A stretch of 64,000 nt of DNA from an uncultured Pseudomonadales bacterium (lineage in GTDB: Bacteria > Patescibacteriota > Microgenomatia > UBA1400 > CAYNMC01): NCBI GenBank assembly GCA_964414895.1, contig CAYPXO010000002.1, positions 35,211 through 99,210 of the forward strand, read 5' to 3'. Every line of letters begins with the position of its first letter. Within the stretch, counting starts at the first letter, position 1. The translations under genes and the position numbers were made by a program. The notes beneath the pieces are model-generated. The model was not told the origin of the DNA, made no database searches, and saw only the letters and a list, made by a program, of their open reading frames with translations. This document shows, piece after piece, positions 1 through 54,854 of the stretch.

Positions 1-925
1 CTGGCGGAAAATAATCATAAAGCGGTAAATATTGCAAAGCGATTAATTTCTCTCCTCTTAGCTCTGAGATTAGCTTATAGTCAAGTTTATCTAGTACTTG
101 GTTTGCTCTTTTTTTAGCCAAAATATACAAACCTCTTTTTCCAGTAATTCTAACCACTAAATAGTTCTCATTTTTTGCCACTACCAAAGCCCTGTTGGAA
201 GGCAAAGTCCAGGGGGTAGTTGTCCATGCCAATAAATAGACAGGTTGCTTAAATTTATTCAAAAAAGAAGGAGGGCTTTTCAATTTAAACTTTACGGTTA
301 TCGCCGGATCTCTCATCAGCTTATATGAATTATCCATCGCTATCTCAAAGTTGGAAACCGGCGTTCCGCAACGAGGGCAATAAAGAGAAGTCCGAACCCC
401 TTTATAAATCAAGCCTTTGTTATATAACTGCTTAAAAACCCAAATAACTGACTCCATGTAACTAATGTCCATCGTCCGGTAAGCGTTTTCCATATCTACC
501 CAACGACCAATATGGTCAATGTACCACCTCCACTGCAAAGAAACACTTTCTACATAAACCTGGCATTCTTTAATAAACTTACTGATTCCAAAATTTTCTA
601 TTTCTCGACGATTAGTCAGGCCTAGCTTTTCCTCAACTTTATTTTCAATTGGTAAGCCATGGCAATCCCATCCCCAAACTCGCCGCACTTTTTTGCCTTT
701 CATGGTAAAAAAACGAGGAATGACATCTTTAGCAATACTGCCAATAAGATGACCATAATGAGGATAGCCGGTTACAAAAGGAGGTCCATCATAAAAAGTG
801 TAAGGGTTGCTATCCGGCCGTTGCTCAATTGATTTCTCAAAAATTTTGTTTTTCTTCCAAAAAGACAAAATTTTCTCTTCCATCTTAAAAAAATCTGGTT
901 TTGCCTCAACCGGCTCAAAATTCAT
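1..925 (-). CDS. ileS: Isoleucyl-tRNA synthetase, N-terminal part; gene continues past the window start
   Basis: Reverse-strand translation from the ATG at 925 gives MNFEPVEAKPDFFKMEEKILSFW...PPFVTGYPHYGHLIGS...GWDCHGLPIE...WTTTPWTLPSN. The class I HIGH-region, the GWDCHGLPIE and the TTTPWTLP motifs are characteristic of IleS. No stop occurs before position 1. Confidence 0.85.
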   Translation of the reverse strand, partial: MNFEPVEAKPDFFKMEEKILSFWKKNKIFEKSIEQRPDSNPYTFYDGPPFVTGYPHYGHLIGSIAKDVIPRFFTMKGKKVRRVWGWDCHGLPIENKVEEKLGLTNRREIENFGISKFIKECQVYVESVSLQWRWYIDHIGRWVDMENAYRTMDISYMESVIWVFKQLYNKGLIYKGVRTSLYCPRCGTPVSNFEIAMDNSYKLMRDPAITVKFKLKSPPSFLNKFKQPVYLLAWTTTPWTLPSNRALVVAKNENYLVVRITGKRGLYILAKKRANQVLDKLDYKLISELRGEKLIALQYLPLYDYFPP

Positions 926-959
926 AGGGGTATTATATAATTTTTTTCTTCATCCGTCG

Positions 960-1700
960 AATTCCGGGACGGGGCCAGAAATTACTAATATAGCAGTAAT
1001 TATTAGCTATATTTTTTTATCCTGTTTACAACAAAGGCTTTAGAACCAAAAGCCTCTCTACTACCTTTCCATGGATTTAAATCTGAAAGGTCTAAATCAA
1101 CTCCTGCATAAACAAACTCAATGTAATCTTTTAAAGAAAATTCTGATTTGCCTATTAATCTCTCTATTTTCTCCTCATTAACAATTTTTGATTCTTTTCT
1201 CCCCACAATCTCAGCAAAACTGGAGTATGGGTAGCTAACAGGATCAGTTACTAACTTTGCTTTTACAGGATTGAGGTGAATATAGCGAGAAAGCTGTAAA
1301 AAATAGCTCTCTTTTTGAACGAGAATACTTTTATAACGATCCTCAAAAATGGGCCCTCTTCTTTCATTCTTCTTATTGAAGTAAACTCCATAGCTGGTTA
1401 GAAGCCTACTCATTATTTTTGCTAATGGGGTTTTATTTATCTCTATCAAAAAATGAAAATGGTTTGGTAAAAGCACATAAGAATAAACAATAAAATCTAA
1501 CTCCCTGTTTAAATCTCCAAATTTATTTAAGAATTTCAAGTAGTCACCTGTAGAGATAAAAATTTTTTGCTTATTTAAACCACGATTGTAGATATGATAA
1601 AAACCACCTTGATAAGTCAACCTTCTAGCTCTAGGCATCTAAGAAGAATATAGCCTTTTTAAACTGTTATGTCAAGCTTTTCTGCCCCCGTCCCAGGTGG
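960..1700 (-). mobile_element. RAYT/IS200-like transposon unit: Y1 transposase gene flanked by inverted GC-rich repeats
   Basis: CCGGGACGGGGCC at 964-976 and GCCCCCGTCCCAGG at 1684-1697 are reverse complements of each other (12/13 match) and bracket the transposase ORF. A tandem GTCCCAGGTGGAA x2 sits at 1690-1715. The unit is inserted in the ileS-ftsZ spacer. Confidence 0.6.
1003..1638 (-). CDS. REP-associated tyrosine transposase (RAYT, TnpA_REP / IS200-like Y1 HUH transposase)
   Basis: MPRARRLTYQGGFYHIYNRG...YVLLPNHFHFLIE (HuH motif)...RRGPIFEDRYKS...YIHLNPVKA...YPYSSF. Motif order and spacing match E. coli RayT/YafM-type TnpA_REP. Confidence 0.85.
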   Translation of the reverse strand: MPRARRLTYQGGFYHIYNRGLNKQKIFISTGDYLKFLNKFGDLNRELDFIVYSYVLLPNHFHFLIEINKTPLAKIMSRLLTSYGVYFNKKNERRGPIFEDRYKSILVQKESYFLQLSRYIHLNPVKAKLVTDPVSYPYSSFAEIVGRKESKIVNEEKIERLIGKSEFSLKDYIEFVYAGVDLDLSDLNPWKGSREAFGSKAFVVNRIKKYS

Positions 1701-1718
1701 AAGTCCCAGGTGGAAATA

Positions 1719-2873
1719 TTACTTCTTGTTTCGCAAGAAGGCGGGGATATCAAACTTCGTATCCTCAGGAGAAAGTTCTTCTTCTTGCTGATCCTCTTCT
1801 GTCTGTTCTCTTTTTATCAAGCGAGGAATATCAAATTCTCCTTGGTTTAGTCTTTTCTTTTTTTCTAACTGAGGTCTTACCGGACCCACTGAAGTTAACT
1901 GTTGCAATCTTTGTTTAGTCTCATCAAAACCGGCGGCAATAACAGTTATTTTTATCTGATCAACCATTTTCTCATCAATTGTCGCCCCAAAAATAATATT
2001 AGCATCAGCCCCGGCCGCGCTAGTGATAACCTCTGCTGCTTGAGAAACCTCGTCCATCGTTAAATCGGAACCGCCAATTATATTAAAAAGAATTCCCTGA
2101 GCTCCTTCTATAGAAATTTCTAGCAAAGGAGAGGAAATAGCAGCGCGGGCGGCCATTTGAGCGCGATTTTCTCCGCTTCCTGCCCCAATTCCCATTAAAG
2201 CAGAACCAGCATCGGTCATCACCGTACGTACATCGGCAAAATCTACATTAATAAGGCCAGGAATTGTTATTAAGTCAGCAATTCCCTGAACTCCCTGGGA
2301 TAAAACCGAATCAGCAACTTTAAAGGCTTCAAGCAAACTCATCTTTTTATCAACAACGTCCAAAAGCCGCTGATTAGGAATAACAATTAATGTATCAACC
2401 TTTTCCTTTAGCCTCTCTATGCCTTCTTCTGCTACCACCATTCTTCTGGTGCCTTCAAACAAAAAAGGCTTAGTAACAACAGCAACTGTCAAAGCACCGC
2501 TTTCTTTGGCTACTTCGGCAATAATTGGAGAAGCACCTGTCCCTGTCCCTCCTCCCATTCCGCAAGTTAAAAAAACCATATCACTATCAAGCAATAAATC
2601 CTTTATCTTTTCTCTTGACTCCTCGGCCGCTTGCTGGCCAATCTCCGGGTTGGCTCCCGATCCCAATCCTTTAGTTAATTTATCTCCAATCTGCACTTTT
2701 GTCGGTGCCTGAGAAGTAAGAAGAGCTTGCGCATCAGTATTTACGGCCACAAAATCCACCCCTTTTATTTTTTCTCCGGTAACCATTGAGGTAACAGCAT
2801 TGCTACCGCCACCACCAACTCCCAAAACTTTTATCTTAGCAAAGGTGTTTAAATCAGGTTTAACTAAAGCCAT
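1719..2873 (-). CDS. ftsZ: Cell division GTPase FtsZ
   Basis: [10 protein letters not shown] and [10 protein letters not shown] tubulin-signature motifs; T7 loop NVDFADV. Confidence 0.95.
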
Positions 2874-2902: not shown

Positions 2903-4192
2903 TCAGGGTAAGAAGGACTTTATAAATTCTATTGTTTTTGCCAACGAACCTCTTACAGGTATCCTTCTAAATATTTTACCAAAATTGTTAAAAGAAAAGG
3001 AAGACTCTCTTGAAATCATATTCCTAATTCCATAAAGAATCAAGCCGTGAGAAACAGCAAAGCGACAACCGGAAACTTCCTCCACTAGTCCAGAAAGTTT
3101 TGATAAAGAAGCAACCCTTACCGGTAAGGAAAGAGTGCCCTTGCAGGCGTCAGAAATACCAATAGTTTCTGCCCCTCCACCACAAAGGACAACACCTGCC
3201 GGTGTTGCTCCTCCAAATCCCGATCTTTTAAGCTCCTCTCCAATAAGAGAAAAAATCTCATTCAATCTGGGTCTTATTATTCCCATCACCAAAGTTTTAT
3301 AAGAAATTTTCCCTGTTTTCTCATTTATTCCTAGCTTCTGAGGGTCAATTTCATCTTTTTTCTTTTCACTTAAATCCAAAATTTCCTCTTTTTTTCTACT
3401 AGAGAGAGCAATTTTTATTTTTTCTGCTGTTTCCAGACTAACCCGCAAACCAATAGCTATATCATTGGTAATATTTTTCGCTCCAACCGGCAAAACAGAA
3501 GAATAAGCTAAAGAGTTATTCGTAAAAATAGCAATACTCGTTGTCCCCCCGCCAATGTCCACCAAACAAACACCTAATTCTTTCTCTGTTTCTGTTAAAC
3601 AAGCCTCGGCAGCCGCTAAACCGGAAAAAACCAACCCATTTATCTCCACCCCTACTTCATTAATGCACTTGGCCAAATTTCTCATTGCCGTTGATGAACC
3701 GCTTACAATATGAGCTTCTGCCTCCAGTCTAACACCGGTCATCCCCAAAGGATCTTTTATTCCTTCCTGGGAATCAAGCTTAAACTCCCGAGGAATAACA
3801 TGAACAACTTCTCTAGAAGAAGGCAAAGAAATTGCTTGAGCCGCCTCTATGACTCGGTTAACATCATTGGAAGTAATTTCCTCTTCTGGATTGGCAACGG
3901 CTACTACCCCTTTTGAGTTCTGCGAATGTACATGAGTTCCTCCAACAGAAATAAAGGCACTGGATAAAGAACAACCAGCCATCCTTTCAGTTGCCTCTAC
4001 ACAAGCCGCTATTGCTTCTATCGCCTCCTCTATATCAACTACTTGACTCTTTTTTAGCCCTTTACTTTCAAGGGAAGAAGCCCCAATAACACTAACCTTG
4101 TCTGACTCCTCAGATAAAGAAGCAATAATCGTAGCAATTTTACAACTCCCTATATCAATACCGGCTATTATTTTTGATTTATTCATTGTCAT
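2903..4192 (-). CDS. ftsA: Cell division protein FtsA (actin-like ATPase)
   Basis: N-terminal IAGIDIGS phosphate-1 motif, DIGGGTT phosphate-2 motif; located immediately upstream of ftsZ. Confidence 0.9.
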   Translation of the reverse strand: MTMNKSKIIAGIDIGSCKIATIIASLSEESDKVSVIGASSLESKGLKKSQVVDIEEAIEAIAACVEATERMAGCSLSSAFISVGGTHVHSQNSKGVVAVANPEEEITSNDVNRVIEAAQAISLPSSREVVHVIPREFKLDSQEGIKDPLGMTGVRLEAEAHIVSGSSTAMRNLAKCINEVGVEINGLVFSGLAAAEACLTETEKELGVCLVDIGGGTTSIAIFTNNSLAYSSVLPVGAKNITNDIAIGLRVSLETAEKIKIALSSRKKEEILDLSEKKKDEIDPQKLGINEKTGKISYKTLVMGIIRPRLNEIFSLIGEELKRSGFGGATPAGVVLCGGGAETIGISDACKGTLSLPVRVASLSKLSGLVEEVSGCRFAVSHGLILYGIRNMISRESSFSFNNFGKIFRRIPVRGSLAKTIEFIKSFLP

Positions 4193-7140: not shown

Positions 7141-8196
7141 TTAAATAATCGCCAACCAAATACCAAAAATGGCCAGCATAATTCCTGCCAGCCAAGTACG
7201 ACTGACAATTTTTGGCTCTTCCCAGCCAAGCAGTTGCAGCCACAAATGTAGAGGAGCTACCGGAAAGACCTTTTTCTTTCTAAACTTTTTAGACAAAAGT
7301 TGTATTAAGCTTGAAGCAACCTCAGCCACAAAAATACCACCAATTACCATTAAAGCCATCACCTTGCCTAGCAATAAAGCAACTACTGCTAGAGTAGCGC
7401 CAAAAGACAAAGAACCAACATCACCAAGCCAAACCCTAGCAGGATAAATATTAAAATAAAGAAAAGAAATCAAAGCACCCAGCCAAAGAGCCAAAAAAAT
7501 AGACAAAGGAGTGTCTAAAATCGCTGCCGATAAAAACCAAAAAACAAAAAGACAAATCATTAAAAGGCCCGAAGCCAAACCATCAAGTCCGTCAGTAATA
7601 TTAACCGCATTGGCAAAAGAAACTATCGTTAAAGCTGACAAAGGAACAAAAAACCAGCCCAGTTTTAACACCCCGTAAAAAGGAATATAAAAAATGTCAA
7701 TCTTTAAGTTTACATACAAAAGAATGCCAATAATCAAAGCCAAAATCCACTGGATTAAAAATTTATGCCTCAATCGCAACCCAAAAAAACCGGTTTGTGA
7801 AAAGCGAAAAAACTTCATTAAATCATCATAAAAACCAAGTAAAGCAAAAGAAACAAAGGTAAAAAAGATTATATTTACTTCTTCTTTAACAGAATAAATA
7901 TGAGTAGCTTCTACACCCAAAAAACTAAGAAGAGGGACCAAAAGGAAAAAGAGAATTCCTGTAGTAAAAATTATCAACAAGCCACCACCAACCGGCGTCC
8001 CTGCTTTGCCTTTGTGAAAACGGTCAAAAATAGGGGTTTTTTTTCCAAAAGCGTCTTTTGTTTTTTGCTGTTGTCTTAAAAATTTAAGCTTATACAAAAA
8101 ATCAATAAAAGGGACAATTAAAATACTGTTTACAATAAAAGAAAAAATAAGCAAACCTAATAGTAAAGCCATTGGGTTTTTCAAATCATCTGTCAT
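7141..8196 (-). CDS. mraY: Phospho-N-acetylmuramoyl-pentapeptide transferase MraY
   Basis: NAVNITDGLDGLA and DVGSLSFGA motifs; the start ATG lies inside the terminal arm of class I repeat copy A. Confidence 0.95.
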   Translation of the reverse strand: MTDDLKNPMALLLGLLIFSFIVNSILIVPFIDFLYKLKFLRQQQKTKDAFGKKTPIFDRFHKGKAGTPVGGGLLIIFTTGILFFLLVPLLSFLGVEATHIYSVKEEVNIIFFTFVSFALLGFYDDLMKFFRFSQTGFFGLRLRHKFLIQWILALIIGILLYVNLKIDIFYIPFYGVLKLGWFFVPLSALTIVSFANAVNITDGLDGLASGLLMICLFVFWFLSAAILDTPLSIFLALWLGALISFLYFNIYPARVWLGDVGSLSFGATLAVVALLLGKVMALMVIGGIFVAEVASSLIQLLSKKFRKKKVFPVAPLHLWLQLLGWEEPKIVSRTWLAGIMLAIFGIWLAII

Positions 8197-8294
8197 TCAT
8201 GGCTTACACCAGGAATCTATACGGATAAATCTATCTTTATAGATCCTGAATCCCCAGCACCATTCGGTGCGGGGCAGGCAAGTTCAGAATGACA
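8191..8294. repeat. Class I nested-palindrome (REPIN-like) element, copy A
   Basis: TGTCATTCATGG...CCAGGAATCTATAC...TATAGATCCTGAATC...GTTCAGAATGACA; fills the dgkA-mraY spacer. Confidence 0.7.
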
Positions 8295-9827: not shown

Positions 9828-9962
9828 TTATTCTTCGAGCGGATCCCGAGCCTGCCTGCCGGCAGGCAGGTCTGTCAAGGGAGTAGTCGAGAAGTCTTCT
9901 CTAGTAGGGTTCTCGACTTTGCCCCGCACCGTCTGGTGCAGGGCTTCGCTCGAACAATAAAA
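9828..9962. repeat. Class II GC-rich TIR element, copy 1 (intergenic)
   Basis: TTATTCTTCGAGCG...CCTGCCTGCCGGCAGGCAGG...GTCGAGAAG/CTTCTCGAC...GCCCCGCACCgtctGGTGCAGGGC...CGCTCGAACAATAA; the ends are inverted repeats. Confidence 0.7.
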
Positions 9963-14902: not shown

Positions 14903-15778
14903 CTAAAATTCCCCTAAAAAGAAAATCTCCGGTTCGAGTTCTATCTTACAGTCCATCTTCACTTTTTTACAAACCAGCTTAATTAATTTTACAACTTGTT
15001 CGGCTTTACCTCCACCAACGTTGATAAAAAAATTAGCGTGTCTCTCACTTATTTTTACCCCTCCTATTTTCTTGCCTTTCAAACCTACTTTATCAATCAA
15101 ATAACCGGCCGATTTACCTTTAGGGTTTTTAAAAATACAGCCAGCTGATTTGCCTTTCGGCTGATTGCTTCTTTCCTTTAATGTTTCCTTTATTTTTCTC
15201 TTCAAAGTACTTTCATTCTCTTTGTTTAATTTAAAACTAGCGCTAAGAACTATCATCCCTTTTTTTCGTAAGCTCGACCAGTCATAAGAAAAATCCAAGT
15301 CCTTCTTTTTAAAAACTTTTCTTTCAAGATTTTTATTTAAAACTTCCACTTTCTCCAAACAGTCGGAAAAAAAGTGATCCTTCCAATGACTGTTATTATA
15401 AACTGCTCCACCAACTGTTCCCGGCAGGCCAGCGAAAAATTCCAAACCTCCTAAACCTCTATTCACCGTTTCTTCTACAATTCTATTCACCATCACTCCT
15501 CCTTCGCAATAGGCTTTCTCATTTTGAATTTTGAATTTTGAATTTTGAATTTTTATTACCAATCCCCTCACTCCCTTATCAGCTACCAATAAATTACTTC
15601 CCCCACCTAAAATATAAAAAGGTAATTTTTTGGCTTTTGCCCAGTTAACGGCTTTGACAATCTGCTGGCTGTTTCTAGCCTCAAAAAAATAATCGGCCGG
15701 CCCGCCAATACCAAAAGTAGTAAAAGGAGCCAAATCAATATCCTTTTTAATCTTGAATTTTAATCTTGAATTTTGCAT
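14903..15778 (-). CDS. murB: UDP-N-acetylenolpyruvoylglucosamine reductase MurB
   Basis: FAD-binding N-terminus FTTFGIGGPADYF...ILGGGSNLL; carries an in-frame (AATTTTG)4 array. Confidence 0.85.
   Translation of the reverse strand: MQNSRLKFKIKKDIDLAPFTTFGIGGPADYFFEARNSQQIVKAVNWAKAKKLPFYILGGGSNLLVADKGVRGLVIKIQNSKFKIQNEKAYCEGGVMVNRIVEETVNRGLGGLEFFAGLPGTVGGAVYNNSHWKDHFFSDCLEKVEVLNKNLERKVFKKKDLDFSYDWSSLRKKGMIVLSASFKLNKENESTLKRKIKETLKERSNQPKGKSAGCIFKNPKGKSAGYLIDKVGLKGKKIGGVKISERHANFFINVGGGKAEQVVKLIKLVCKKVKMDCKIELEPEIFFLGEF
15521..15554. repeat. Heptanucleotide tandem array (AATTTTG/CAAAATT)x4.5 inside murB
   Basis: attttgaattttgaattttgaattttgaattttt; translated in frame as KIQNSKFKIQN. Confidence 0.8.
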
Positions 15779-17230: not shown

Positions 17231-18145
17231 TCAACTTCTTAAACCAATAATAGAGGCAAATCTTCCCTCCACTTCTCCTTTCCTTAAAGCACGAAAGTGA
17301 GAAAAAAAACGCTTATTGCAAATCGTGCAAATCCCTGTATCTTCAATATTGCCTCTTTCTACACCAAAAGAAACAAGTTTGTCTGTTATAAAGGAAGCAA
17401 TATCTAAAGATTTAACGGGGATCCTTCGCGCGCCTGCAGCCAGGCAGGCAGGCTCAGGATGACGGTTTGATCTTAGTATGTACTGCTTCCATTCCGGCAA
17501 TTTCTCTTGAATATAATGGCTGTGGACAAAGCAACATTTCCTTGCTCCCGGCCCAATAACTACCTTAATGTTGACAGGTTGACAAGCAAATTTCTTCATC
17601 ATAATCAGCAAAGTTTCTAAAAAAATTTTCTCTACCGCCCCTCGCCAGCCAACATGAACAGCAGCAACCACTCGTTTCATAGGATCAAAAAACAAAAGAG
17701 GAAAACAATCAGCCGTTTTTACCATCAAAAAAATCCCCGGTTTATCACTAATCAAAGCGTCAACTTCAGAAATAATATTAGTTAAGTGGTTTCTTCTTCG
17801 AGCGAGTCTCGATTTTAATCGAGAGGAGTCGAGAAGCTCATCTGGAATATCTTGAAAAGTTCTTAACTTCTCCCTCTCCGCCTCTTTGGCGGATCGGGAA
17901 CCGCTCGAACAATAAAAAATCTTGTTTAAATCCTGATCATCTAAAACTCTAACCTTGCTTCCGTGAACCTGATCCATTTCAAAAAGAGTCTCTAAATCAA
18001 TTCCTAATTGTCTTGCCAATCTTTTTCTATTGCCTAAAACCTTTCCATCTTCCCCAAAACGAAGGTCAATATTTCCTGAAGCCTTATCAGAAATTCCACA
18101 AACAAGCTTTTCTTCTTTTTTAAAAATTTTAAAATTTTTAAGCAC
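17231..18145 (-). CDS. pgeF: Peptidoglycan editing factor PgeF/YfiH (DUF152) carrying two in-frame repeat-element insertions
   Basis: QVHGSKV...ADALISDKPGIFLMVKTADCFPLLF...AAVHVGWRG core motifs. 304 aa versus ~250 typical; the extra segments correspond exactly to class II element sequence. Confidence 0.7.
   Translation of the reverse strand: MLKNFKIFKKEEKLVCGISDKASGNIDLRFGEDGKVLGNRKRLARQLGIDLETLFEMDQVHGSKVRVLDDQDLNKIFYCSSGSRSAKEAEREKLRTFQDIPDELLDSSRLKSRLARRRNHLTNIISEVDALISDKPGIFLMVKTADCFPLLFFDPMKRVVAAVHVGWRGAVEKIFLETLLIMMKKFACQPVNIKVVIGPGARKCCFVHSHYIQEKLPEWKQYILRSNRHPEPACLAAGARRIPVKSLDIASFITDKLVSFGVERGNIEDTGICTICNKRFFSHFRALRKGEVEGRFASIIGLRS
17419..17465. repeat. Class II fragment (GATCC...GCCTGCCTGG.CAGGC) fused to a class I-like end (CTCAGGATGACGG), in frame in pgeF
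   Basis: ggatccttcgcgcgcctgcagccaggcaggcaggctcaggatgacgg; encodes RHPEPACLAAGARRIP. Confidence 0.6.
17791..17917. repeat. Class II GC-rich TIR element, copy 2, inserted in frame (126 bp, 42 codons) in pgeF
   Basis: TTCTTCTTCGAGCG...AGTCTCGATTTTAATCGAGAGG...CGCTCGAACAATAAAA; encodes FYCSSGSRSAKEAEREKLRTFQDIPDELLDSSRLKSRLARRR between the conserved VHG and ADAL motifs. Confidence 0.75.
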
Positions 18146-23288: not shown

Positions 23289-23362
23289 TGTCATTCCTGG
23301 CTCGACCAGGAATCTATACAAATAATTACTGTTATAGATTCCGCATCAAGTGCGGAATGACA
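23289..23362. repeat. Class I nested-palindrome (REPIN-like) element, copy B (mraZ-rsmH spacer)
   Basis: TGTCATTCCTGGctcgaCCAGGAATCTATACAaataattacTGTTATAGATTCCGCAtcaagTGCGGAATGACA. Confidence 0.75.
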
Positions 23363-33223: not shown

Positions 33224-34280
33224 AAACTTCCAGTGTTCTCTCGGCACATTTTCTCCAAGAATACTTCTCAGTTTGCTCTTTTCCCAACTTAATTAATTTC
33301 TCTTTTTCTTTCTTGTTCATCTTTAAAAACTTGTTTATTTTTCTGCTAATATTACCAATATCCTTAGGGTCAAAATAAAAAGCTGCTCTTCCATAAATCT
33401 CTCTAAAAACAGGAATGTTCGAACAAACCACCGGACAACCAAGACTCATCGCCTCCAACCCGGGTAAACCAAAACCTTCCATTAAAGAAGGATTGATAAA
33501 ACAAAGGGCATTTTTATAAAGAGAGACTAATTCTTTGTCCGAAGCCGCCCCATAGAATATAATTTTTTCTTCTAAATTACTCTTTTCCACTGTCTTTTTT
33601 AATCTTTCATAAAAATAATCCTCTGGCCCTACAAATAATAATTTTAAATTTTGAATTTCAATTTTGAATTTGTCATTTTTAATTTTGAATTTATTAAATG
33701 CCTCTATCAACCTCTCTAAATTTTTATGCGGATAAGCATTTCCCACATAAAGTAAGTAGCTGGTAGCTGGTAGCTGGTAGCTGGTAGCTGGCTTTCTCTT
33801 CTTGAACTTTGAATCAACTCCTTCATAAATAACAACTATTTTCTCTGGGCTAACTTTCAAACATCTAACAATCTCTTTCTTAGTTGTCTTAGAAACAGCA
33901 ATAATCTTCTCTGCCTTTCTTGCTCCAATAAAAAGAAGCATTTTATAACAAAAATGTTTTATTTTATAAAACAAGCCCGGAAGACTGCTTGCCCTTCCGG
34001 TTTTAAAACGCCAAGGAATCAAATCATGAATAGTAAGAACAAACTTGCCTGGATAAAAAAGAGGAAAAGAAAAATAAGTAAAGTGAACTAAATTAAAATT
34101 TTTTTTTAGCAACCAAAAAGGAAAGCAGACTTGCTCGGCCAAAGAATGCCAGCGAAATTTTGGCTTAATAAGAATATATTCGTTCCTCTTATTAAACCTC
34201 TTTAATTGATTAAAGAGGTTTTTGGCATATCTTCCAACACCGGTTTGATCTATTAAACGACCATCGATTGCAACTTTCAT
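33201..34280 (-). CDS. Glycosyltransferase family 4 (GT-B); carries an in-frame (TAGCTGG)5 array
   Basis: MKVAIDGRLIDQTGVGRY...EGFGLPGLEAMSLGCPVV; the upstream ORF extension to 34349 is a translation of a GC hairpin island. Confidence 0.7.
33757..33791. repeat. Heptanucleotide tandem array (TAGCTGG)x5 inside a GT4 gene
   Basis: tagctggtagctggtagctggtagctggtagctgg; encodes PATSYQLPATSY. Confidence 0.8.
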
Positions 34281-36504: not shown

Positions 36505-37965
36505 TTATCTAAAATCACATCTTCGAAGGTCAACAATTGCAAAACTCTCCTGTTCTTCCAATAATAAGCATTGCTTCTTCAAATCTTTCAGCTCCTGATC
36601 CTTCTTAACCGTTACATAAAAACTTGCTCCTTTTTTTATCCTATCTTCAATATTGCCTCCAATCGGCCAGCCTTTTCTTTCGGTTTGATATAAAAAGGCT
36701 GTGTCTCCTCCATAAGGAGCAATTACCTTATCTTCCTCCTGGCTTAGCTTTTTTACTTGTTGGCCGGCAGCCACTATTTCCGGATGATTAATATTAAAAA
36801 AGTCTCTTACTTGATACCAACCAAAAGACTCCATAAACAAAAAGCAGCCAGCAGCCAGCAGCCAGCAGCCAAGGGAACTGAATATCTTTCGTGCTTCCTT
36901 TAACAAAAATAAAACCCCTCGAGCCAGAAAAATACAAACAACTGGAATGATTAAAATCTGATAATAGTCGTGGCGAACATTGCCAGTAGCTACTACTGCT
37001 AAATAAGCCAAACAGCTCAAAAACCAAAAATGAAAAAGGTAGCTTGACTTCTGGGAAGCTTTTCTTAAAAGACCAAAAGCCAAAAAAATCACCCCCCAAT
37101 AGCCCAAAATTAATTTAGCAAGCCTTTCGGCAAATAACCAATAAAACCAAGCTCCTTTAAAACGAATCTCATCACCGTTTAAAAGCCACATATTGGCGGG
37201 AATTCCTTCAGGGAACTGCTGAATCCAAAGCCGCCAGACAGCAAAAGGCAACAACCCAATAAATAAATAAATAAATAAGCCAATAAATAAATAAAGTTTT
37301 TTCTTAGATTGAAAAAACTTTTTAATAAAAATATATAAAACCGGTGGCAATATCAAAAAAAGAGCAAACGGTTTAAGAAGTAGAGCAATTATAAAAAAAA
37401 TAGAAGAAAGAAAGAAATTGAAAATTGAAAATTGAAAATTGAAAATTGAATTTGTTCCCTTTATAAAAAAATAAACAGAACCTAAACTCGTTGCTATCAT
37501 CATCGGCTCAGGCAAAATCACTCGGTTGTAATAAATGTTGTAAGGCAGAACTGCATAAAAAAAAGCTGTTATTAAAGCAAGAGGCAAACCAGCAATTTCA
37601 CCAACAATTAAAAAAAGGAAAATTATTGTTCCTAACGAAAAGAAAATTGACAATAATCTTCCTCCCGTCTCAAAACTAACAAATGAAAAAAGCTTGAAAA
37701 AAAGGCTGTGTAAAAAGGCAAAGATGGGAAACTCCACCATCCGGTATCCTTGAGGGTTCTCTTGTCCTGAAGCAATAGTGGATAAATCATCATACTTTGG
37801 TTTTAGAAGGTCAATTTCTTGATTGACAAAATTCCTTGCCACTGCCGCCGTATCTGCTTGACGCCAAGAATGCCAATCGGCCAAAGGAGCAGTTATCCTA
37901 TAAGTCCTTAAAATAAAAGCTAAAACCAAAATCAATAAAAGAAAAGCAAATTCTTTTTTAAACAT
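36505..37965 (-). CDS. GT-C fold membrane glycosyltransferase (GT39/GT83, ArnT/PMT-like) carrying three in-frame repeat arrays
   Basis: N-terminal WRQADTAAVARNF motif region, more than 10 TM helices; contains (GAAAATT)4.5, (CAGCCAG)3.7 and CCAATAAATAAATAA x2. Confidence 0.55.
   Translation of the reverse strand: MFKKEFAFLLLILVLAFILRTYRITAPLADWHSWRQADTAAVARNFVNQEIDLLKPKYDDLSTIASGQENPQGYRMVEFPIFAFLHSLFFKLFSFVSFETGGRLLSIFFSLGTIIFLFLIVGEIAGLPLALITAFFYAVLPYNIYYNRVILPEPMMIATSLGSVYFFIKGTNSIFNFQFSIFNFFLSSIFFIIALLLKPFALFLILPPVLYIFIKKFFQSKKKLYLFIGLFIYLFIGLLPFAVWRLWIQQFPEGIPANMWLLNGDEIRFKGAWFYWLFAERLAKLILGYWGVIFLAFGLLRKASQKSSYLFHFWFLSCLAYLAVVATGNVRHDYYQILIIPVVCIFLARGVLFLLKEARKIFSSLGCWLLAAGCFLFMESFGWYQVRDFFNINHPEIVAAGQQVKKLSQEEDKVIAPYGGDTAFLYQTERKGWPIGGNIEDRIKKGASFYVTVKKDQELKDLKKQCLLLEEQESFAIVDLRRCDFR
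36844..36873. repeat. Heptanucleotide tandem array (CAGCCAG)x3.7
   Basis: cagccagcagccagcagccagcagcc; in frame (WLLAAGCWLL). Confidence 0.75.
37255..37295. repeat. Tandem duplication CCAATAAATAAATAA(ATAAG) x2 with (AAAT)n
   Basis: ccaataaataaataaataagccaataaataaataaag; encodes the duplicated LFIYLFIG. Confidence 0.7.
37414..37453. repeat. Heptanucleotide tandem array (GAAAATT)x4.5
   Basis: gaaattgaaaattgaaaattgaaaattgaaaattgaattt; encodes FNFQFSIFNF in frame. Confidence 0.85.
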
Positions 37966-39637: not shown

Positions 39638-40403
39638 TGCCTAATAGTATACCAAAAATAAAAATCCTTAGGAGAGCTCCAATCTTCAATAAAAGTTCAA
39701 GAATAACTTTTTCCCAAGAAGGTTTGTGTTTTTCAAAAAACAGCTTTAATCCCTTATATTCTGCCAAGATCGCTTTTTGAGATAAACTTCTAGGGCTTGC
39801 CTCTTTATAATGGATAATTTCCGGCTCCGGCACATAAAAAACTCGAAAGTCCTTTTTCTTGGCCCGAAAACAAAAATCGACTTCTTCGGCATACATAAAA
39901 TAGTCTTCATCAAAGCCACCAATTTCCTCCACTAATTTTCTCTTGGTTAACAAGAAGGCTCCGGTCACCCAATCAACTTTTCTCTGCTTTCTGTAAAAAC
40001 TTCTCCTCTGTTGGTGATAAGGCTTTAAAAAGAGATTAAAAACAGGCAAGTCATCTAAAAAAAACATCATATAAAAAATCTGGCGCAGTTTTGGGAAAAA
40101 ACCGGCTGATGGTTGGAGTGTCCTGTCTTTGTTTAAAAGCTTGCAACCCAAAATATCAATCTTCTCATTTTTATCTATTATTTTTACTGCCCTTTCTATT
40201 GCTTTTTCCAAAACAACTGTATCCGAGTTTAAAAAAAGAACATATTCACCCTTTGCCTTTCCAATCGCCTGATTACATGCTTTAGCAAACCCCAAATTTT
40301 TTTTGTTTCGGATAAGCCTAATATTTAAGCTTGCATATTTCTTCTTGACACTTGACACTTGACACTTGACACTATAATCCGATCCATTATCAACAACGAT
40401 CAC
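39591..40403 (-). CDS. Glycosyltransferase family 2 (GTG start per ORF track; the conserved N-terminus LTLTIIIPSFNTKEYLEDCIRSI continues in frame to 40520 without a canonical start)
   Basis: VVDNGSD...; in-frame upstream codons encode the typical GT2 IIIPSFN motif and run to a TGA lying inside the class I element end. Confidence 0.7.
   Translation of the reverse strand: MIVVDNGSDYSVKCQVSSVKKKYASLNIRLIRNKKNLGFAKACNQAIGKAKGEYVLFLNSDTVVLEKAIERAVKIIDKNEKIDILGCKLLNKDRTLQPSAGFFPKLRQIFYMMFFLDDLPVFNLFLKPYHQQRRSFYRKQRKVDWVTGAFLLTKRKLVEEIGGFDEDYFMYAEEVDFCFRAKKKDFRVFYVPEPEIIHYKEASPRSLSQKAILAEYKGLKLFFEKHKPSWEKVILELLLKIGALLRIFIFGILLGNEEKKKIYWQAFKVA
40344..40373. repeat. Heptanucleotide tandem array (GACACTT)x4
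   Basis: cttgacacttgacacttgacacttgacact; encodes SVKCQVSSVK in frame. Confidence 0.8.
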
Positions 40404-40518: not shown

Positions 40519-40594
40519 TGTCATTCCTGCGAAAGCAGGAATCTATAAAAATAAATATTATCTGTATAGATTCCTGATCAAATCAGGAATGACC
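40519..40594. repeat. Class I nested-palindrome (REPIN-like) element, copy C
   Basis: TGTCATTCCTGCgaaaGCAGGAATCTATAAAAataaatattatcTGTATAGATTCCTGATcaaATCAGGAATGACC. Confidence 0.75.
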
Positions 40595-41241: not shown

Positions 41242-42336
41242 TTAATTATCAGTAGTCTTCTGCAAAACCCTTATTGTCTTTTTGGCACATTTCTCCCAAG
41301 AGAATTTTTTTACTTGCTGCAAACCTTTTTTTATTAAATTATTCCTTTCCCTTTGCTTTGATTTTAACATCTTTGACAAACTTTTATAAATCGAATTATC
41401 AGAATAAGGGTTTTCAATATAAACCGCCGCCTCCCCTGCCACCTCAGGCAGGGAAGAAGTCTTGCTGGTTACAACCGGACAGCCGGCTGCCATTGCTTCA
41501 AGCACTGGTATGCCAAAGCCTTCATAGAGTGAAGGGTAAACAAAGCATAAGGCATTCTTTAATAAAGCTTGTTTTTCTTTTTCGCTGACAAAACCGGTAA
41601 AAATAACTTCTTTTTCTAAACCTAACTGTTTTACTTTATTAAATATCTCTTTGTAAAGCCAACCCTTCTTTCCAGCTATTACTAATTTAGTATTTAGGGA
41701 TAAGTATTTAGTATTTAGGGAAGCGAAAGCTTCTATAAGACGAGTGAGGTTTTTTCTGGGCTGGAGAGTGCCGAGGTAAAGAAGATAATTGCTAGCTGGT
41801 AGCTTTTTAAATTCATTCTTTATTCTTGATTCTTTATTCTTGATTCTTTTACTTAGTCCCGGATAAGTAACGGTAATTTTCTCCTCCGGATAATCATAAA
41901 AATGGATAATCTCCTTTTTAGTAAACTCTGAGATGGTAAAAATATGAGCCGCTTTTTTAATTGAATACCTTGTCCAGTTTTTTAGCTGCCAAAGATCGCT
42001 CTTTTTAAACTGCTCAGGAAAACGCCAGAAAGCTAAATCCATAATAGAAATCACCCTTGGGCAAGAAGAAAACCGAGGAGCATAATGACCCGGAGTAAAA
42101 AATAAATCCGGTTTAGGCCGCAAAAAGAATAATTCCAAAGGCAGCCGCCACTGCGTCCACCATAACCCCGGCCGCAAAACCTTATATCGCCACCAACCTG
42201 TCTCTTTAGGTAAATCATCTAAAAGTTTATCTTTCAAAAAAATTTTGAATTTTAAACTGCAATCCTGCCTGCCGGCAGGCAAGGTTTTAATTTTTAATTT
42301 TTCATTTTTAATTTGTCTATATATTTCCCACAACAA
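41242..42336 (-). CDS. Glycosyltransferase family 4, paralog a (tandem duplicate of 42515-43693)
   Basis: C-terminal half identical to paralog b (YLLYLGTLQPRKNL...EGFGIPVLEAMAAGCPVVTSKTSSLPEVAGEAAV). Confidence 0.75.
   Translation of the reverse strand: MLWEIYRQIKNEKLKIKTLPAGRQDCSLKFKIFLKDKLLDDLPKETGWWRYKVLRPGLWWTQWRLPLELFFLRPKPDLFFTPGHYAPRFSSCPRVISIMDLAFWRFPEQFKKSDLWQLKNWTRYSIKKAAHIFTISEFTKKEIIHFYDYPEEKITVTYPGLSKRIKNKESRIKNEFKKLPASNYLLYLGTLQPRKNLTRLIEAFASLNTKYLSLNTKLVIAGKKGWLYKEIFNKVKQLGLEKEVIFTGFVSEKEKQALLKNALCFVYPSLYEGFGIPVLEAMAAGCPVVTSKTSSLPEVAGEAAVYIENPYSDNSIYKSLSKMLKSKQRERNNLIKKGLQQVKKFSWEKCAKKTIRVLQKTTDN
41682..41721. repeat. 21-bp tandem duplication TAAGTATTTAGTATTTAGGGA x1.9
   Basis: Encodes the duplicated KYLSLNT in the GT4-a interdomain linker. 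Confidence 0.75.
41814..41848. repeat. Heptanucleotide tandem array (ATTCTTK)x5
   Basis: attctttattcttgattctttattcttgattcttt; encodes RIKNKESRIKNE. Confidence 0.75.
42263..42283. repeat. Class II core palindrome CCTGCCTGCCGGCAGGCAAGG inserted in frame near the GT4-a N-terminus
   Basis: Encodes LPAGRQDCS; paralog b has NCNA at the homologous position. Confidence 0.7.
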
Positions 42337-42416
42337 CTCATAAGAATAAACATTACTACCTACTCTTTCTTTTATATTCGCTTCGTTACCGTCAATGGCA
42401 ATAAAAATAGTAGTTA

Positions 42417-42449
42417 GTAGTTAGTAGTTAGTAGTTAGGGATCCTCTGT
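42417..42449. repeat. Heptanucleotide tandem array (TAGTAGT)x4.5, intergenic, abutting class I half-element D
   Basis: tagtagttagtagttagtagttagtagttaggg. Confidence 0.8.
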
Positions 42450-42455
42450 CATTCC

Positions 42456-42496
42456 TGGCTCCGACCAGGAATCTATACAAATAAATCTTATTACTT
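42456..42496. repeat. Class I half element (solo REP-like hairpin), copy D
   Basis: TGTCATTCCTGGctccgaCCAGGAATCTATACAAATAAATC with no right half. Confidence 0.65.
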
Positions 42497-54751: not shown

Positions 54752-54854
54752 TGTCATTCTCGACCTGAAAGCGAAAGCGCTTCAAGATCGGGAATCTATA
54801 AAAATATTAAAGCTGAATTATTTGTATAGATTCTGAATCAAGTTCAGAATGACA
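54752..54854. repeat. Class I nested-palindrome (REPIN-like) element, copy E
   Basis: TGTCATTCTCGACC...GGGAATCTATAAAAATATTAAAGCTGAATTATTTGTATAGATTCTGAATCAAGTTCAGAATGACA. Confidence 0.75.

What the first reader, a model, noticed from the sequence alone, without database searches (positions are those of the whole stretch)
960..1700. RAYT (REP-associated tyrosine transposase) unit inserted between ileS and ftsZ
The 211-aa ORF has the complete Y1/HUH signature (HFHFL, RRGPIFEDRY, YIHLNP, YPYSSF) and aligns in motif order with E. coli RayT. It is bracketed by inverted GC-rich 13-mers at 964-976 and 1684-1697, with a tandem 13-mer at 1690-1715. RAYTs are domesticated single-copy transposases that disperse REP/REPIN elements. 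Finding one inside a dcw/ileS housekeeping neighbourhood, together with three repeat families in the same window, is notable. Which repeat family is its substrate remains open.
Basis: partly seen in the sequence, partly recalled or inferred. Interest (0 to 1): 0.55.

Follow-up and report, generated by a model that had tools for sequence, protein, structure and literature searches.

The report
TIR-flanked RAYT-like tyrosine transposase unit
The ORF is a real RAYT-like HUH/tyrosine nuclease gene, but it belongs to the already described, biochemically unstudied "TIRtron" kind, bracketed by its own terminal inverted repeats rather than by REP hairpins, and sits as a single 733-bp insertion between ftsZ and ileS of a Patescibacteria genome.

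Summary
A 211-aa ORF (1003-1638, minus strand) with intact HUH and Tyr motifs is bracketed by inverted 18-mers (964-981 and 1679-1696, 16/18). A perfect 13-nt tandem duplication (1690-1715) overlaps one repeat tip.

The protein is RAYT-like: its best structural match is E. coli TnpA_REP. It falls just below the NCBIfam RAYT cutoff and fits TnpAY1 subclass 2.1, which equals Bertels RAYT group 1 and the TIRYT of Di Nocera 2013. Such genes are flanked by terminal inverted repeats, not by REP hairpins ("TIRtrons").

The repeat core occurs only twice in the 64 kb. None of the window's other repeat families flanks the gene.

Closest relatives (53-66% identity) carry the same repeats, GGGACGGGGGCA, and the same internal promoter in unrelated gene contexts. 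A relative with 80%-identical FtsZ has ftsZ-53 nt-ileS with no insert. So the unit is, or was, mobile.

One finding appears new. Short tandem duplications spanning the flank/repeat junction recur across the family: 13 of 130 repeat tips against 2 expected, and 8 of 10 of the loci whose TIR core is GGGAC. This looks like a footprint of nick, extend and reseal.

The element itself is a new member of a known kind, of modest interest.

The parts
964..981 (+). Terminal inverted repeat arm on the 3' side of the gene: CCGGGACGGGGCCAGAAA, reading inward
   Evidence: It matches the other arm at 16 of 18 positions. The homologous arm, TGCCCCCGTCCC on the gene strand, lies after the stop codon in L002, L083, L163, L164 and L186.
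981..1000 (-). Short AT-rich hairpin (ATTACT-N8-AGTAAT) in the 21-nt spacer between the stop codon and the repeat arm. It is not conserved in relatives and is probably incidental or a weak terminator.
   Evidence: Read from the sequence. The spacers differ in L002, L163 and L164.
1003..1638 (-). Gene for a 211-aa Y1 HUH nuclease/transposase (TIRYT, RAYT group 1, TnpAY1 subclass 2.1, in a short form without the C-terminal HTH). The HUH histidines are H60 and H62; the catalytic Tyr is Y119 in SRYIHLNP; the SS motif is at S139-S140.
   Evidence: these residues are invariant in 34 homologs; pLDDT 86; 4er8_A E=8.5e-10, TM 0.70.
1647..1675 (-). Sigma-70-like promoter of the gene, just inside the 5' repeat arm: TTGACA-17 nt-TATATT (11 of 12 consensus positions). 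The -10 box ends 8 nt before the ATG, so the transcript is leaderless or has a very short leader with no Shine-Dalgarno sequence.
   Evidence: The same arrangement is conserved in L002, L163, L170, L184 and L185.
1679..1696 (-). Terminal inverted repeat arm on the 5' side of the gene: CTGGGACGGGGGCAGAAA, reading inward on the minus strand
   Evidence: The same arm lies about 40 nt upstream of the ATG in L002, L163, L164 and L186.
1690..1715 (.). Exact tandem duplication GTCCCAGGTGGAA x2. On the gene strand it reads TTCCACCTGGGAC x2. It spans the junction between the outside flank (8 nt) and the outer 5 nt of the repeat arm.
   Evidence: The same kind of junction-spanning duplication is seen in relatives.
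1719..2873 (-). Context: ftsZ. A terminator-like hairpin at 1740-1722 lies just upstream of the insertion.
1..960 (-). Context: 5' part of ileS (start codon at 925) with a promoter-like site TCGACG-17 nt-TATAAT (960..932). That site begins 4 nt outside the repeat arm.
   Evidence: The TATAAT region is conserved in the empty site of L166.

Best explanation
Positions 964-1696 are one compact 733-bp 'TIRtron'. This is a gene for a RAYT-like Y1 HUH tyrosine nuclease (TIRYT, RAYT group 1, TnpAY1 subclass 2.1), here in the short Patescibacteria form without the C-terminal HTH. The gene has its own promoter and is bracketed by 18-nt terminal inverted repeats with the core GGGACGGGG(G/C)CAGAAA. The unit was inserted, in the same orientation as its neighbours, into the short ftsZ-ileS spacer. 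It lies between the ftsZ terminator and the ileS promoter, so it disrupts nothing.

The likely mechanism is inferred from IS608 and E. coli TnpA_REP biochemistry. The enzyme acts on single-stranded DNA, where the two arms can pair into a panhandle. It nicks near the repeat tips through Y119, forming a 5'-phosphotyrosyl link and a free 3'-OH, and it rejoins strands. This gives rare excision and insertion of the whole unit. The substrate is its own two repeats, not a dispersed REP/REPIN family.

The 13-nt duplication over the repeat tip is best read as a footprint of that activity: a nick 6-10 nt outside the core, polymerase extension of the 3'-OH into the repeat, then resealing of the enzyme-linked 5' end.
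For: Shown by tool results:
- Domain, motifs and fold.
- The repeats are statistically real and unique in the window.
- The closest homologs (53-66% identity) in L002, L163, L164, L184, L185 and L186 lie in unrelated gene neighbourhoods. They keep the same repeat core (GGGACGGGGGCA in L002, L163, L164, L186; GGGACGGGGAT in L184, L185). L002, L163, L184 and L185 also keep the TTGACA promoter just inside the 5' arm.
- Across 75 distant homologs from many phyla, most have a significant flanking inverted repeat. Its upstream arm ends 36-75 nt before the ATG and its downstream arm begins 0-5 nt after the stop. 28 arms are of the GGGTC type and 9 of the GGGAC type.
- This architecture and its GGGGWSAS core are described as TIRtron/TIRYT (PMC3733652) and equated with subclass 2.1 and Bertels group 1 (PMC6006769). 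The subclass motifs NH[YF]H, Y[IV]HLNP and SS are present here.
- Empty site: relatives with 80%-identical FtsZ have ftsZ-53 nt-ileS.
- As ssDNA, the MFE and centroid folds both pair the two arms.
- Junction-spanning tandem duplications occur at 13 of 130 repeat tips against 2.0 expected from the intergenic background, P about 1e-7. They occur in 8 of 10 loci whose repeat core is GGGAC, some iterated or at both ends.
- The nick, extend and rejoin model was proposed for TnpA_REP (PMC3333891, Fig. 7B).
Against: - No second copy, solo repeat, circle junction or polymorphic empty site of this exact element was seen, so current mobility is not shown.
- The identical proteins P0044 and P0082 were each found in a single context, on 11 and 24 contigs. 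This points to mostly vertical inheritance.
- The empty site comes from a genome that is only 80% identical in FtsZ, so the insertion boundaries are not nucleotide-precise.
- The repeat core GGGACGGG deviates from the published GGGGWSAS.
- The C-terminal HTH/DnaA_C domain reported in the 20 published TIRYTs that fall in subclass 2.1 is absent here.
- A 47%-identical homolog also sits in the ftsZ-ileS gap of a more distant genome. Ancient residence followed by repeated loss cannot be excluded.
- No TIRYT has been tested biochemically.
- The window genome has many short tandem arrays, so its own 13-mer duplication is not significant alone.
Confidence: 0.72

Rival explanations
1. This is a canonical domesticated RAYT (REPtron) whose substrate is one of the dispersed repeat families of this genome. 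One candidate is the GTCATTC-stem-GAATCTATA hairpins, which often occur as inverted doublets.
For: The protein is RAYT-like, and its nearest solved structure is TnpA_REP. It scores 77.7 bits on the NCBIfam RAYT equivalog. The window does hold a REPIN-like hairpin family with 7 copies and compensatory stem changes.
Against: The score is below the equivalog cutoff of 80. Canonical RAYT genes are flanked by their own REPs, whereas here the flanks are non-palindromic TIRs unrelated to the hairpin family. The nearest hairpin copy is 6.5 kb away. The hairpins are absent from every relative's locus that carries the same gene and repeats. Subclass 2.1 / group 1 genes are reported to lack REPs and to have few repeated flanking 16-mers.
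Confidence: 0.06
2. This is an ordinary IS200/IS605-family insertion sequence.
For: It hits Pfam PF01797, 'Transposase IS200 like'. It is a discrete insertion that recurs in different contexts.
Against: It has the Y---NP motif, not Y---Q. It is 211 aa, not about 150. It has terminal inverted repeats rather than different subterminal hairpins at the two ends. There is no tnpB. It is single-copy in 64 kb. A genuine IS200-type fragment with hairpins sits next to the homolog in L002 and looks quite different.
Confidence: 0.03
3. This is a domesticated, no longer mobile gene. The two repeats would be binding sites for the protein, for autoregulation at the promoter-proximal arm or for a host ssDNA-processing role. 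The tandem duplications would then be replication slippage at a protein-bound or structured roadblock, not enzyme-made nicks.
For: The identical proteins P0044 and P0082 stay in one context across many samples. Group 1 RAYTs behave largely like vertically inherited genes. The promoter abuts the 5' arm. Some duplications have 1-3 nt of microhomology (L027, L163). The genome is rich in short tandem arrays.
Against: The same unit, both repeats included, is found in unrelated neighbourhoods. An empty site exists. All catalytic residues are invariant. In the iterated cases every unit starts at one fixed point in the flank and ends at variable depth in the repeat (L174, L184, L185). The window's duplication has no microhomology. 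Both features fit a site-specific nick better than slippage.
Confidence: 0.19

Closest known systems
TIRtron / TIRYT (Di Nocera, De Gregorio & Rocco 2013, PMC3733652) = TnpAY1 subclass 2.1 (Quentin et al. 2018, PMC6006769) = RAYT group 1 (Bertels et al. 2017, PMC5581495)
   Same: It is a RAYT-like Y1 protein with NH[YF]H, Y[IV]HLNP and SS motifs. The gene is bracketed by terminal inverted repeats at a characteristic distance, with a G-rich outer core. No REP family is present. Copy number is low.
   Different: The protein is a short 211-aa form without the C-terminal Bac_DnaA_C/HTH domain. The repeat core is GGGACGGGGGCA rather than GGGGWSAS. The host is a Patescibacteria (Microgenomates-like) genome, a group not covered in those surveys. 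Junction-spanning tandem duplications are not mentioned in Di Nocera 2013 (searched for 'duplicat', 'direct repeat' and 'tandem'); the subclass sections of Quentin 2018 that were read do not mention them.
E. coli TnpA_REP / REPtron (PDB 4ER8; Ton-Hoang et al. 2012, PMC3333891; subclass 2.2, RAYT group 2)
   Same: It has the same fold and the same catalytic HUH and Tyr layout. It is a single gene flanked by inverted copies of its presumed substrate. The proposed nick, extend and rejoin amplification model fits the duplications seen here.
   Different: Sequence identity is only 21% and the phmmer E-value is 0.02. The flanks are not GTAG-tagged palindromic hairpins. There are not hundreds of dispersed copies. 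The gene is found in different contexts in close relatives.
IS200/IS605 elements (IS608, ISDra2)
   Same: They share the Y1 HUH chemistry on single-stranded DNA. Cleavage occurs at a distance from the recognised structure, and there are no classical target-site duplications on both sides.
   Different: They have the Y---Q motif and a protein of about 150 aa. Their left and right subterminal hairpins differ, rather than forming inverted repeats. They are often multi-copy and often carry tnpB.
REPIN (two inverted REPs that form one long hairpin)
   Same: Two inverted arms are predicted to pair in single-stranded DNA.
   Different: Here the 'loop' is about 700 nt and contains the enzyme gene. There is one copy, not a population.

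Membership tests
Y1 HUH transposase superfamily (Pfam PF01797) | Score above the Pfam gathering threshold | tested here: met
   36.5 bits against a cutoff of 23, residues 14-121.
Y1 HUH transposase superfamily (Pfam PF01797) | HUH motif and a single catalytic tyrosine, in the right order and on the right fold | tested here: met
   H60-F-H62 and Y119 are invariant in 34 homologs. They align with the motifs of 4ER8. The model has pLDDT 86 and its best PDB hits are 4er8_A, then the IS608 and ISDra2 TnpA structures.
Class 2 TnpAY1 (RAYT-like), as opposed to IS200 TnpA | Y---NP motif instead of Y---Q | tested here: met
   YIHLNP. The criterion comes from PMC6006769.
Canonical RAYT / REPtron (NCBIfam NF047646, subclasses 2.2 and 2.5) | Score above the NCBIfam equivalog cutoff | tested here: not met
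   77.7 bits against a cutoff of 80.
Canonical RAYT / REPtron | Gene flanked by REP hairpins (individually palindromic, GTAG-tagged) in inverted orientation | tested here: not met
   The arms CCGGGACGGGGCCAGAAA and CTGGGACGGGGGCAGAAA are G-rich and not self-complementary. They pair only with each other.
Canonical RAYT / REPtron | The flanking sequence is a high-copy dispersed family in the genome | tested here: not met
   There are only the 2 flanking copies in 64 kb. No extra copy appears in the 4-12 kb loci of relatives. The whole genome was not available.
Canonical RAYT / REPtron | Single copy per genome, vertically inherited | tested here: inconclusive
   There is one copy in the window. 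The identical proteins P0044 and P0082 stay in one context. But close relatives sit in unrelated contexts and an empty site exists.
TIRtron / TIRYT = TnpAY1 subclass 2.1 = RAYT group 1 | Protein motifs NH[YF]H, FQ/W[EQ], Y[IV]HLNP and an SS tail | tested here: met
   The protein has NHFH, YIHLNP and YPYSS. The FQ position reads FE here and FQ in most homologs. No subclass HMM was available, so the assignment rests on motifs and on close homology (E about 1e-39) to 320-aa proteins with Y1_Tnp and Bac_DnaA_C.
TIRtron / TIRYT | Gene bracketed by terminal inverted repeats unrelated to REPs, at a similar distance from the CDS | tested here: met
   The 16/18 inverted repeat lies 40 nt upstream of the ATG and 21 nt after the stop codon. 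The same layout is seen family-wide.
TIRtron / TIRYT | TIR core fits GGGGWSAS | tested here: not met
   The core is GGGACGGG, a GGGAC subtype shared by 9 loci. 28 other loci have the GGGTC type and 11 fit the strict consensus. The published consensus applies to 'some' or 'the majority' of TIRs, not all.
TIRtron / TIRYT (subclass 2.1) | C-terminal HTH (Bac_DnaA_C, HTH_23 or HTH_28) | tested here: not met
   Pfam finds only Y1_Tnp in this protein and in its 204-218-aa relatives. In the 318-320-aa relatives Bac_DnaA_C lies at residues 234-299, beyond where this protein ends.
IS200/IS605 insertion sequence | Y---Q motif, different subterminal hairpins at the two ends, multi-copy, often with tnpB | tested here: not met
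   It has the Y---NP motif, inverted repeats rather than hairpins, one copy in 64 kb and no tnpB next to it.

The most novel reading that the evidence does not exclude
The short tandem duplications that span the flank/repeat junction may be natural footprints of TIRYT catalysis. The proposed sequence is a site-specific nick 6-10 nt outside the G-rich repeat core, limited strand-displacement synthesis into the protein-bound repeat, and resealing of the tyrosine-linked 5' end. The duplications are 8-19 nt long, usually at one end (both ends in L185 and L186), and sometimes iterated 3-7 times. In the iterated cases each unit has a fixed outer start and a variable inner end. If this reading is correct, it would be the first in vivo evidence that the largest and untested RAYT group is catalytically active. 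It would predict the cleavage position. It would also be natural evidence for the 'nick, extend, rejoin' amplification model proposed for REP/BIME arrays, that is, for how REP-like tandem clusters are seeded.
Probability: 0.4. Interest if true: 0.6.

Novelty: new member of a known kind. Interest (0 to 1): 0.36.

Why it matters
Group 1 RAYTs (TIRYTs, subclass 2.1) are the largest RAYT-like group, and no one has tested their substrate or activity. This window adds a minimal representative. It is 733 bp with a 211-aa enzyme, no HTH domain, a promoter inside one repeat and a clean empty site in a relative. That makes it a convenient model for biochemistry.

The family-wide enrichment of junction-spanning duplications gives a concrete, testable prediction of where the enzyme cuts. 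It also suggests how tandem REP/TIR clusters might arise.

For annotation, the practical point is that "RayT" or "IS200-like transposase" labels on such genes in Patescibacteria should not be read as implying a REP/REPIN system.

Tried and rejected
1. The genome-contig scan with a 34-sequence alignment saturated at 600 hits with distant relatives of at most 45% identity. It did not recover the source genome or close relatives. It was useful only for the family-wide architecture.
2. The metagenome scan with the single protein gave only two close loci, at 54% identity. The rest were distant.
3. The locus set for P0082 looked as if variable defence islands (Thoeris ThsB, restriction-modification) began right at the 3' end of the gene. 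This suggested an integron-like role. Inspection showed that the break point is the 3' end of an adjacent tRNA gene, so it is an ordinary tRNA-targeted island. The idea was rejected.
4. I looked for a classical target-site duplication on both sides of the unit and found none. The flanks are partly inverted (TTCC...GGAA here, GAGCCA...TGGCTC in L163), which reflects either a palindromic target or longer repeats.
5. Alignment to the empty site was too diverged to fix the insertion boundaries to the nucleotide.
6. Rfam found nothing in the 64 kb.
The Patescibacteria/Microgenomates assignment rests on the names of FtsZ and Y1 homologs.
8. L001 is 100% identical to the window, so it gives no polymorphism data on the 13-mer.
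9. The first crude six-frame coding mask over-masked. The background was recomputed with greedy ORF selection.
Full report
**1. Observation**

It passes Pfam Y1_Tnp at 36.5 bits against a cutoff of 23. It is transcribed in the same direction as its neighbours. Upstream lies ftsZ (1719..2873), and downstream lies ileS, whose start codon is at 925.

The inverted repeats are real and somewhat longer than reported. They read CCGGGACGGGGCCAGAAA at 964-981 and CTGGGACGGGGGCAGAAA at 1696-1679 on the minus strand, matching at 16 of 18 positions.
- The exact 9-mer core GGGACGGGG occurs only at these two sites in 64 kb, against 0.16 expected.
- The 16-mer with up to three mismatches also occurs only there.
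- Against shuffled flanks, the flank-to-flank inverted repeat has z about 10-11.
- The 13-nt tandem repeat at 1690-1715 is exact. It overlaps the outer 5 nt of the right-hand arm.

**2. The protein**

HMMER against PDB sequences finds only E. coli TnpA_REP (4ER8). The match is weak (E=0.02), but the HUH and YxxxNP motifs align. An AlphaFold model built from 34 homologs has mean pLDDT 86. Foldseek puts 4er8_A first (E=8.5e-10, target TM 0.70), followed by the IS608 and ISDra2 transposases. H60, H62, Y119, N123, P124, S139 and S140 are invariant in the 34 homologs.

So it is an intact Y1 HUH enzyme of the RAYT-like class, with Y---NP rather than the Y---Q of IS200. However, it scores 77.7 bits on the NCBIfam REP-associated tyrosine transposase equivalog, whose cutoff is 80.

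Its relatives number more than 5,800. Proteins of about 205-220 aa come from Patescibacteria, and sources name Gottesmanbacteria, Shapirobacteria and Microgenomates. Proteins of about 320 aa from many other phyla carry an additional C-terminal Bac_DnaA_C helix-turn-helix at residues 234-299. That domain lies beyond where the short form ends.

**3. The unit in relatives**

The closest homologs lie in unrelated gene neighbourhoods:

| Locus | Identity to window protein | Neighbouring genes |
|---|---|---|
| L002 | 66% | a glycoside hydrolase and hrcA-grpE-dnaK |
| L163 | 66% | genes without Pfam hits |
| L184 | 61% | a 912-aa ORF downstream (contig ends 100 nt upstream of the gene) |
| L164 | 57% | a penicillin-binding protein gene downstream |
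| L185 | 56% | a radical-SAM gene |
| L186 | 53% | a CHAP-domain gene nearby |

Nevertheless each locus has the same inverted repeat core: GGGACGGGGGCA in L002, L163, L164 and L186, and GGGACGGGGAT in L184 and L185. The upstream arm ends about 40 nt before the ATG and the downstream arm lies shortly after the stop codon. L002, L163, L184 and L185 also keep a TTGACA -35 box immediately inside the upstream arm, as the window does.

In the window this promoter is TTGACA-17 nt-TATATT, matching 11 of 12 consensus positions. It ends 8 nt before the ATG, with no Shine-Dalgarno sequence.

The 12-mer GGGACGGGGGCA never occurs in the fetched loci except as these flanking arms.

**4. The architecture is family-wide and already named**

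I searched for the best inverted repeat between the 200 nt upstream and the 200 nt downstream of each homolog's ORF. Among 75 loci from many phyla, most showed a significant pair. The upstream arm typically ended 36-75 nt before the start codon, and the downstream arm began 0-5 nt after the stop. Twenty-eight arms contain a GGGTC or GGTGTC core such as GGGGTCAGGTCT. Nine contain GGGAC, as the window does.

This is what Di Nocera et al. 2013 called TIRtrons, encoding TIRYTs, with a shared GGGGWSAS motif (PMC3733652). Quentin et al. 2018 equate it with TnpAY1 subclass 2.1, which has the motifs NH[YF]H, Y[IV]HLNP and SS, no REPs, and often a DnaA_C/HTH tail. They also equate it with Bertels group 1 (PMC6006769).

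Bertels et al. 2017 found group 1 to be the largest RAYT group. They found it one of the two most IS-like groups (with group 6), with 6.3% near-identical duplicates and some plasmid copies. Its flanking 16-mers are only slightly repeated (PMC5581495). Only these papers mention TIRYTs in the searched library, and none reports biochemistry.

More distant homologs (about 30-37% identity) in my set are flanked by individually palindromic hairpins, which are classical REP-like flanks. This shows the contrast with the window's arms.

**5. The unit is an insertion**

Relatives whose FtsZ is 80% identical (L166, L167) have ftsZ, 53 nt of spacer, then ileS. The TATAAT region of the ileS promoter is recognisably conserved with the window. 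Other relatives have other small genes in this gap: a 113-aa ORF in L168 and a dCTP deaminase in L169.

A genome whose FtsZ is only 66% identical (L170) has a different TIRtron in the same gap, among several small ORFs. Its protein is 47% identical and its repeats are GGGACGGTCCT / AGGACCGTCCC. Because nearer relatives lack it and the repeats differ, I favour independent insertions into a permissive or preferred gap. Ancient residence with repeated loss is not excluded.

In the window the unit lies between the ftsZ terminator-like hairpin (1740-1722) and the ileS -35-like hexamer (960-955). It therefore interrupts neither gene.

**6. Copy number and the other repeat families**

tblastn finds no second copy of the gene in the window. 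The window does contain other repeats:
- a hairpin family, GTCATTC-stem-loop-stem-GAATCTATA, with 7 copies and compensatory stem changes, often as inverted doublets;
- about a dozen perfect heptamer arrays;
- a 268-nt direct repeat;
- GC-rich palindromes.

None resembles the repeat arms and none flanks the gene. The hairpin family is absent from every relative's locus that carries the same unit.

**7. Junction-spanning tandem duplications**

The window's 13-mer duplication reads TTCCACCTGGGAC x2 on the gene strand. It consists of 8 nt of outside flank plus the outer 5 nt of the repeat arm, and it has no microhomology at its edges. The same kind of event recurs in relatives:

| Locus | Junction duplication |
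|---|---|
| L002 | 15 nt x2 at the 3' arm |
| L083 | 10 nt x2 at the 3' arm |
| L163 | 8 nt x2 at the 5' arm |
| L185 | 9 nt x2 at the 5' arm, and 13 nt x2 plus a partial third copy at the 3' arm |
| L186 | 9 nt x2 at the 5' arm, and an imperfect array at the 3' arm |
| L184 | iterated arrays, 6 units |
| L174 | iterated arrays, 7 units |

Only L164 and L170 lack a clear case. That makes 8 of the 10 loci whose repeat core is GGGAC.

I also tested the pattern on 65 non-redundant loci with a significant flanking inverted repeat. Thirteen of 130 repeat tips carry an exact, non-simple tandem duplication of period 7-20 that abuts or spans the tip. The intergenic background in the same loci is 1.5%, which predicts 2.0 tips (binomial P about 1e-7). 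Against all positions the background is 0.6%. Hits include distant GGGGTC-type elements from other phyla: L027, L045, L048, L060, L064, L068 and L119.

I then read the cases in flank-to-repeat orientation, directly from the sequences. The unit next to the intact repeat starts 6-10 nt outside the G-rich core. In the iterated arrays all units start at the same flank position. Their inner ends vary, at +1/+2, +5/+6 or about +12 nt into the repeat.

Di Nocera 2013 does not mention such duplications. [quoted passage not shown]

**8. Mechanism (inferred)**

This account draws on IS608 and on E. coli TnpA_REP, which cleaves ssDNA at a distance from the REP, forms a 5'-phosphotyrosyl intermediate and recombines strands (PMC3333891). 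I propose that the enzyme recognises the G-rich repeat arms on single-stranded DNA. As ssDNA, the two arms of the window unit are predicted to pair as a 15-bp panhandle in both the MFE and the centroid structure.

Cleavage at both ends followed by strand exchange would excise and reinsert the whole 733-bp unit. This would be rare, which fits the single-context results for the identical proteins P0044 and P0082.

The duplications are explained by a single nick at a fixed site 6-10 nt outside the core. A host polymerase would then extend the free 3'-OH until it meets the bound repeat. The enzyme-linked 5' end would finally be rejoined to the new 3' end. This is the 'amplification' scheme that Ton-Hoang et al. 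drew for BIMEs (their Fig. 7B).

What is shown:
- the anatomy of the unit;
- its conservation across contexts;
- the empty site;
- the statistical enrichment of junction duplications.

What is inferred:
- binding of the enzyme to the repeats;
- the position and the strand of the nick;
- any current mobility.

The main rival for the duplications is replication slippage at a protein-bound or structured barrier. A few cases do have 1-3 nt of microhomology, and the window genome is generally rich in short tandem arrays.

**9. Comparison and verdict**

The finding is real and correctly located. It is not a canonical REP-associated RAYT and not an IS200. It is a member of the known but functionally untested TIRtron/TIRYT group.

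This member has some variant features: a short enzyme without the HTH domain, a GGGAC-type repeat core, and a Patescibacteria host. As such it is a new member of a known kind and of modest interest.

The recurrent junction-spanning duplications are the one aspect I could not find described. They give a testable handle on the enzyme's cleavage site and on how tandem REP/TIR clusters are seeded.

Noticed in passing
window 15521-15553, 33756-33791, 36843-36871, 37415-37450, 40344-40373, 42408-42438, 44413-44442, 44490-44523, 46740-46773, 60503-60536: There are about a dozen perfect heptamer tandem arrays (7 nt x 4-5 copies, 100% identical within an array). Their units differ (ATTTTGA, GTAGCTG, AGCAGCC, AAATTGA, CTTGACA, TAGTAGT, AAAATTG, AGCGAAA). 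Some units recur at several sites, and some contain TTGACA, a -35-like hexamer. This is an unusual density for 64 kb.
   Followed up: partly
window 8192-8221, 23290-23318 / 23333-23361, 40520-40547 / 40565-40593, 42448-42477, 54825-54853: A hairpin family has conserved feet, (T)GTCATTC ... GAATCTATA(C)AAATAA, and stems that differ by compensatory changes (CCTGG/CCAGG, CCGCA/TGCGG, TGAAC../..TTCAGA). Two pairs form inverted doublets about 15 nt apart, like REPINs. The family is absent from all other loci fetched except L001 (the same genome as the window) and is not adjacent to the Y1 gene. No cognate enzyme was identified.
   Followed up: partly
window 41421-41688 and 42685-42952 (also 41265-41340 / 42535-42610): A 268-nt direct repeat at 98% identity, spaced 1264 nt apart, with a further 76-nt repeat at 86% beside it. 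This looks like a recent local duplication in a region dense with tandem arrays.
   Followed up: no
window 9843-9870, 17433-17460, 42238-42309: GC-rich palindromes of the type CCTGCCTGCCGGCAGGCAGG stand out in an AT-rich genome.
   Followed up: no
window 1-64000 (composition): GC skew is strongly and uniformly negative (-0.1 to -0.3) across the first 62 kb and flips to +0.12 in the last 2 kb. This may mark a replication origin or terminus, or a switch in gene orientation, near 62 kb.
   Followed up: no
L174-L183, about 3615-3650 and downstream: Next to a 42%-identical homolog (P0082), strains differ completely downstream of the gene. The variable regions include Thoeris ThsB with a LexA-like gene and a DNA methylase, a Tsp45I-type restriction-modification system, or other genes. 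The break point is the 3' end of an adjacent tRNA gene, so this is a tRNA-targeted defence island and not an effect of the Y1 enzyme.
   Followed up: yes
L174 2875-2955 and L184 770-850: The flank/repeat junction is reiterated many times. In L174 the unit TAATCAG plus variable parts of GGGACGGGTTTC occurs 7 times. In L184 the unit AACATT plus variable parts of the repeat occurs 6 times. Every unit starts at the same flank base.
   Followed up: partly
L002 6730-7300: Immediately downstream of the closest homolog's unit lies a 116-aa IS200-type Y1_Tnp fragment. It is flanked by CCCCCAG-N8-CTGGGGG hairpins, so two different kinds of Y1 element sit side by side.
   Followed up: no
L166-L170, ftsZ-ileS gap: The spacer between ftsZ and ileS varies among Microgenomates-like genomes. 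It is empty (53 nt) in L166, holds a 113-aa ORF in L168 and a dCTP deaminase in L169, and holds several small ORFs, a TIRtron and a GIY-YIG-like ORF in L170.
   Followed up: partly
window 1-64000: No Rfam family reaches its gathering score anywhere in the 64 kb on either strand.
   Followed up: no
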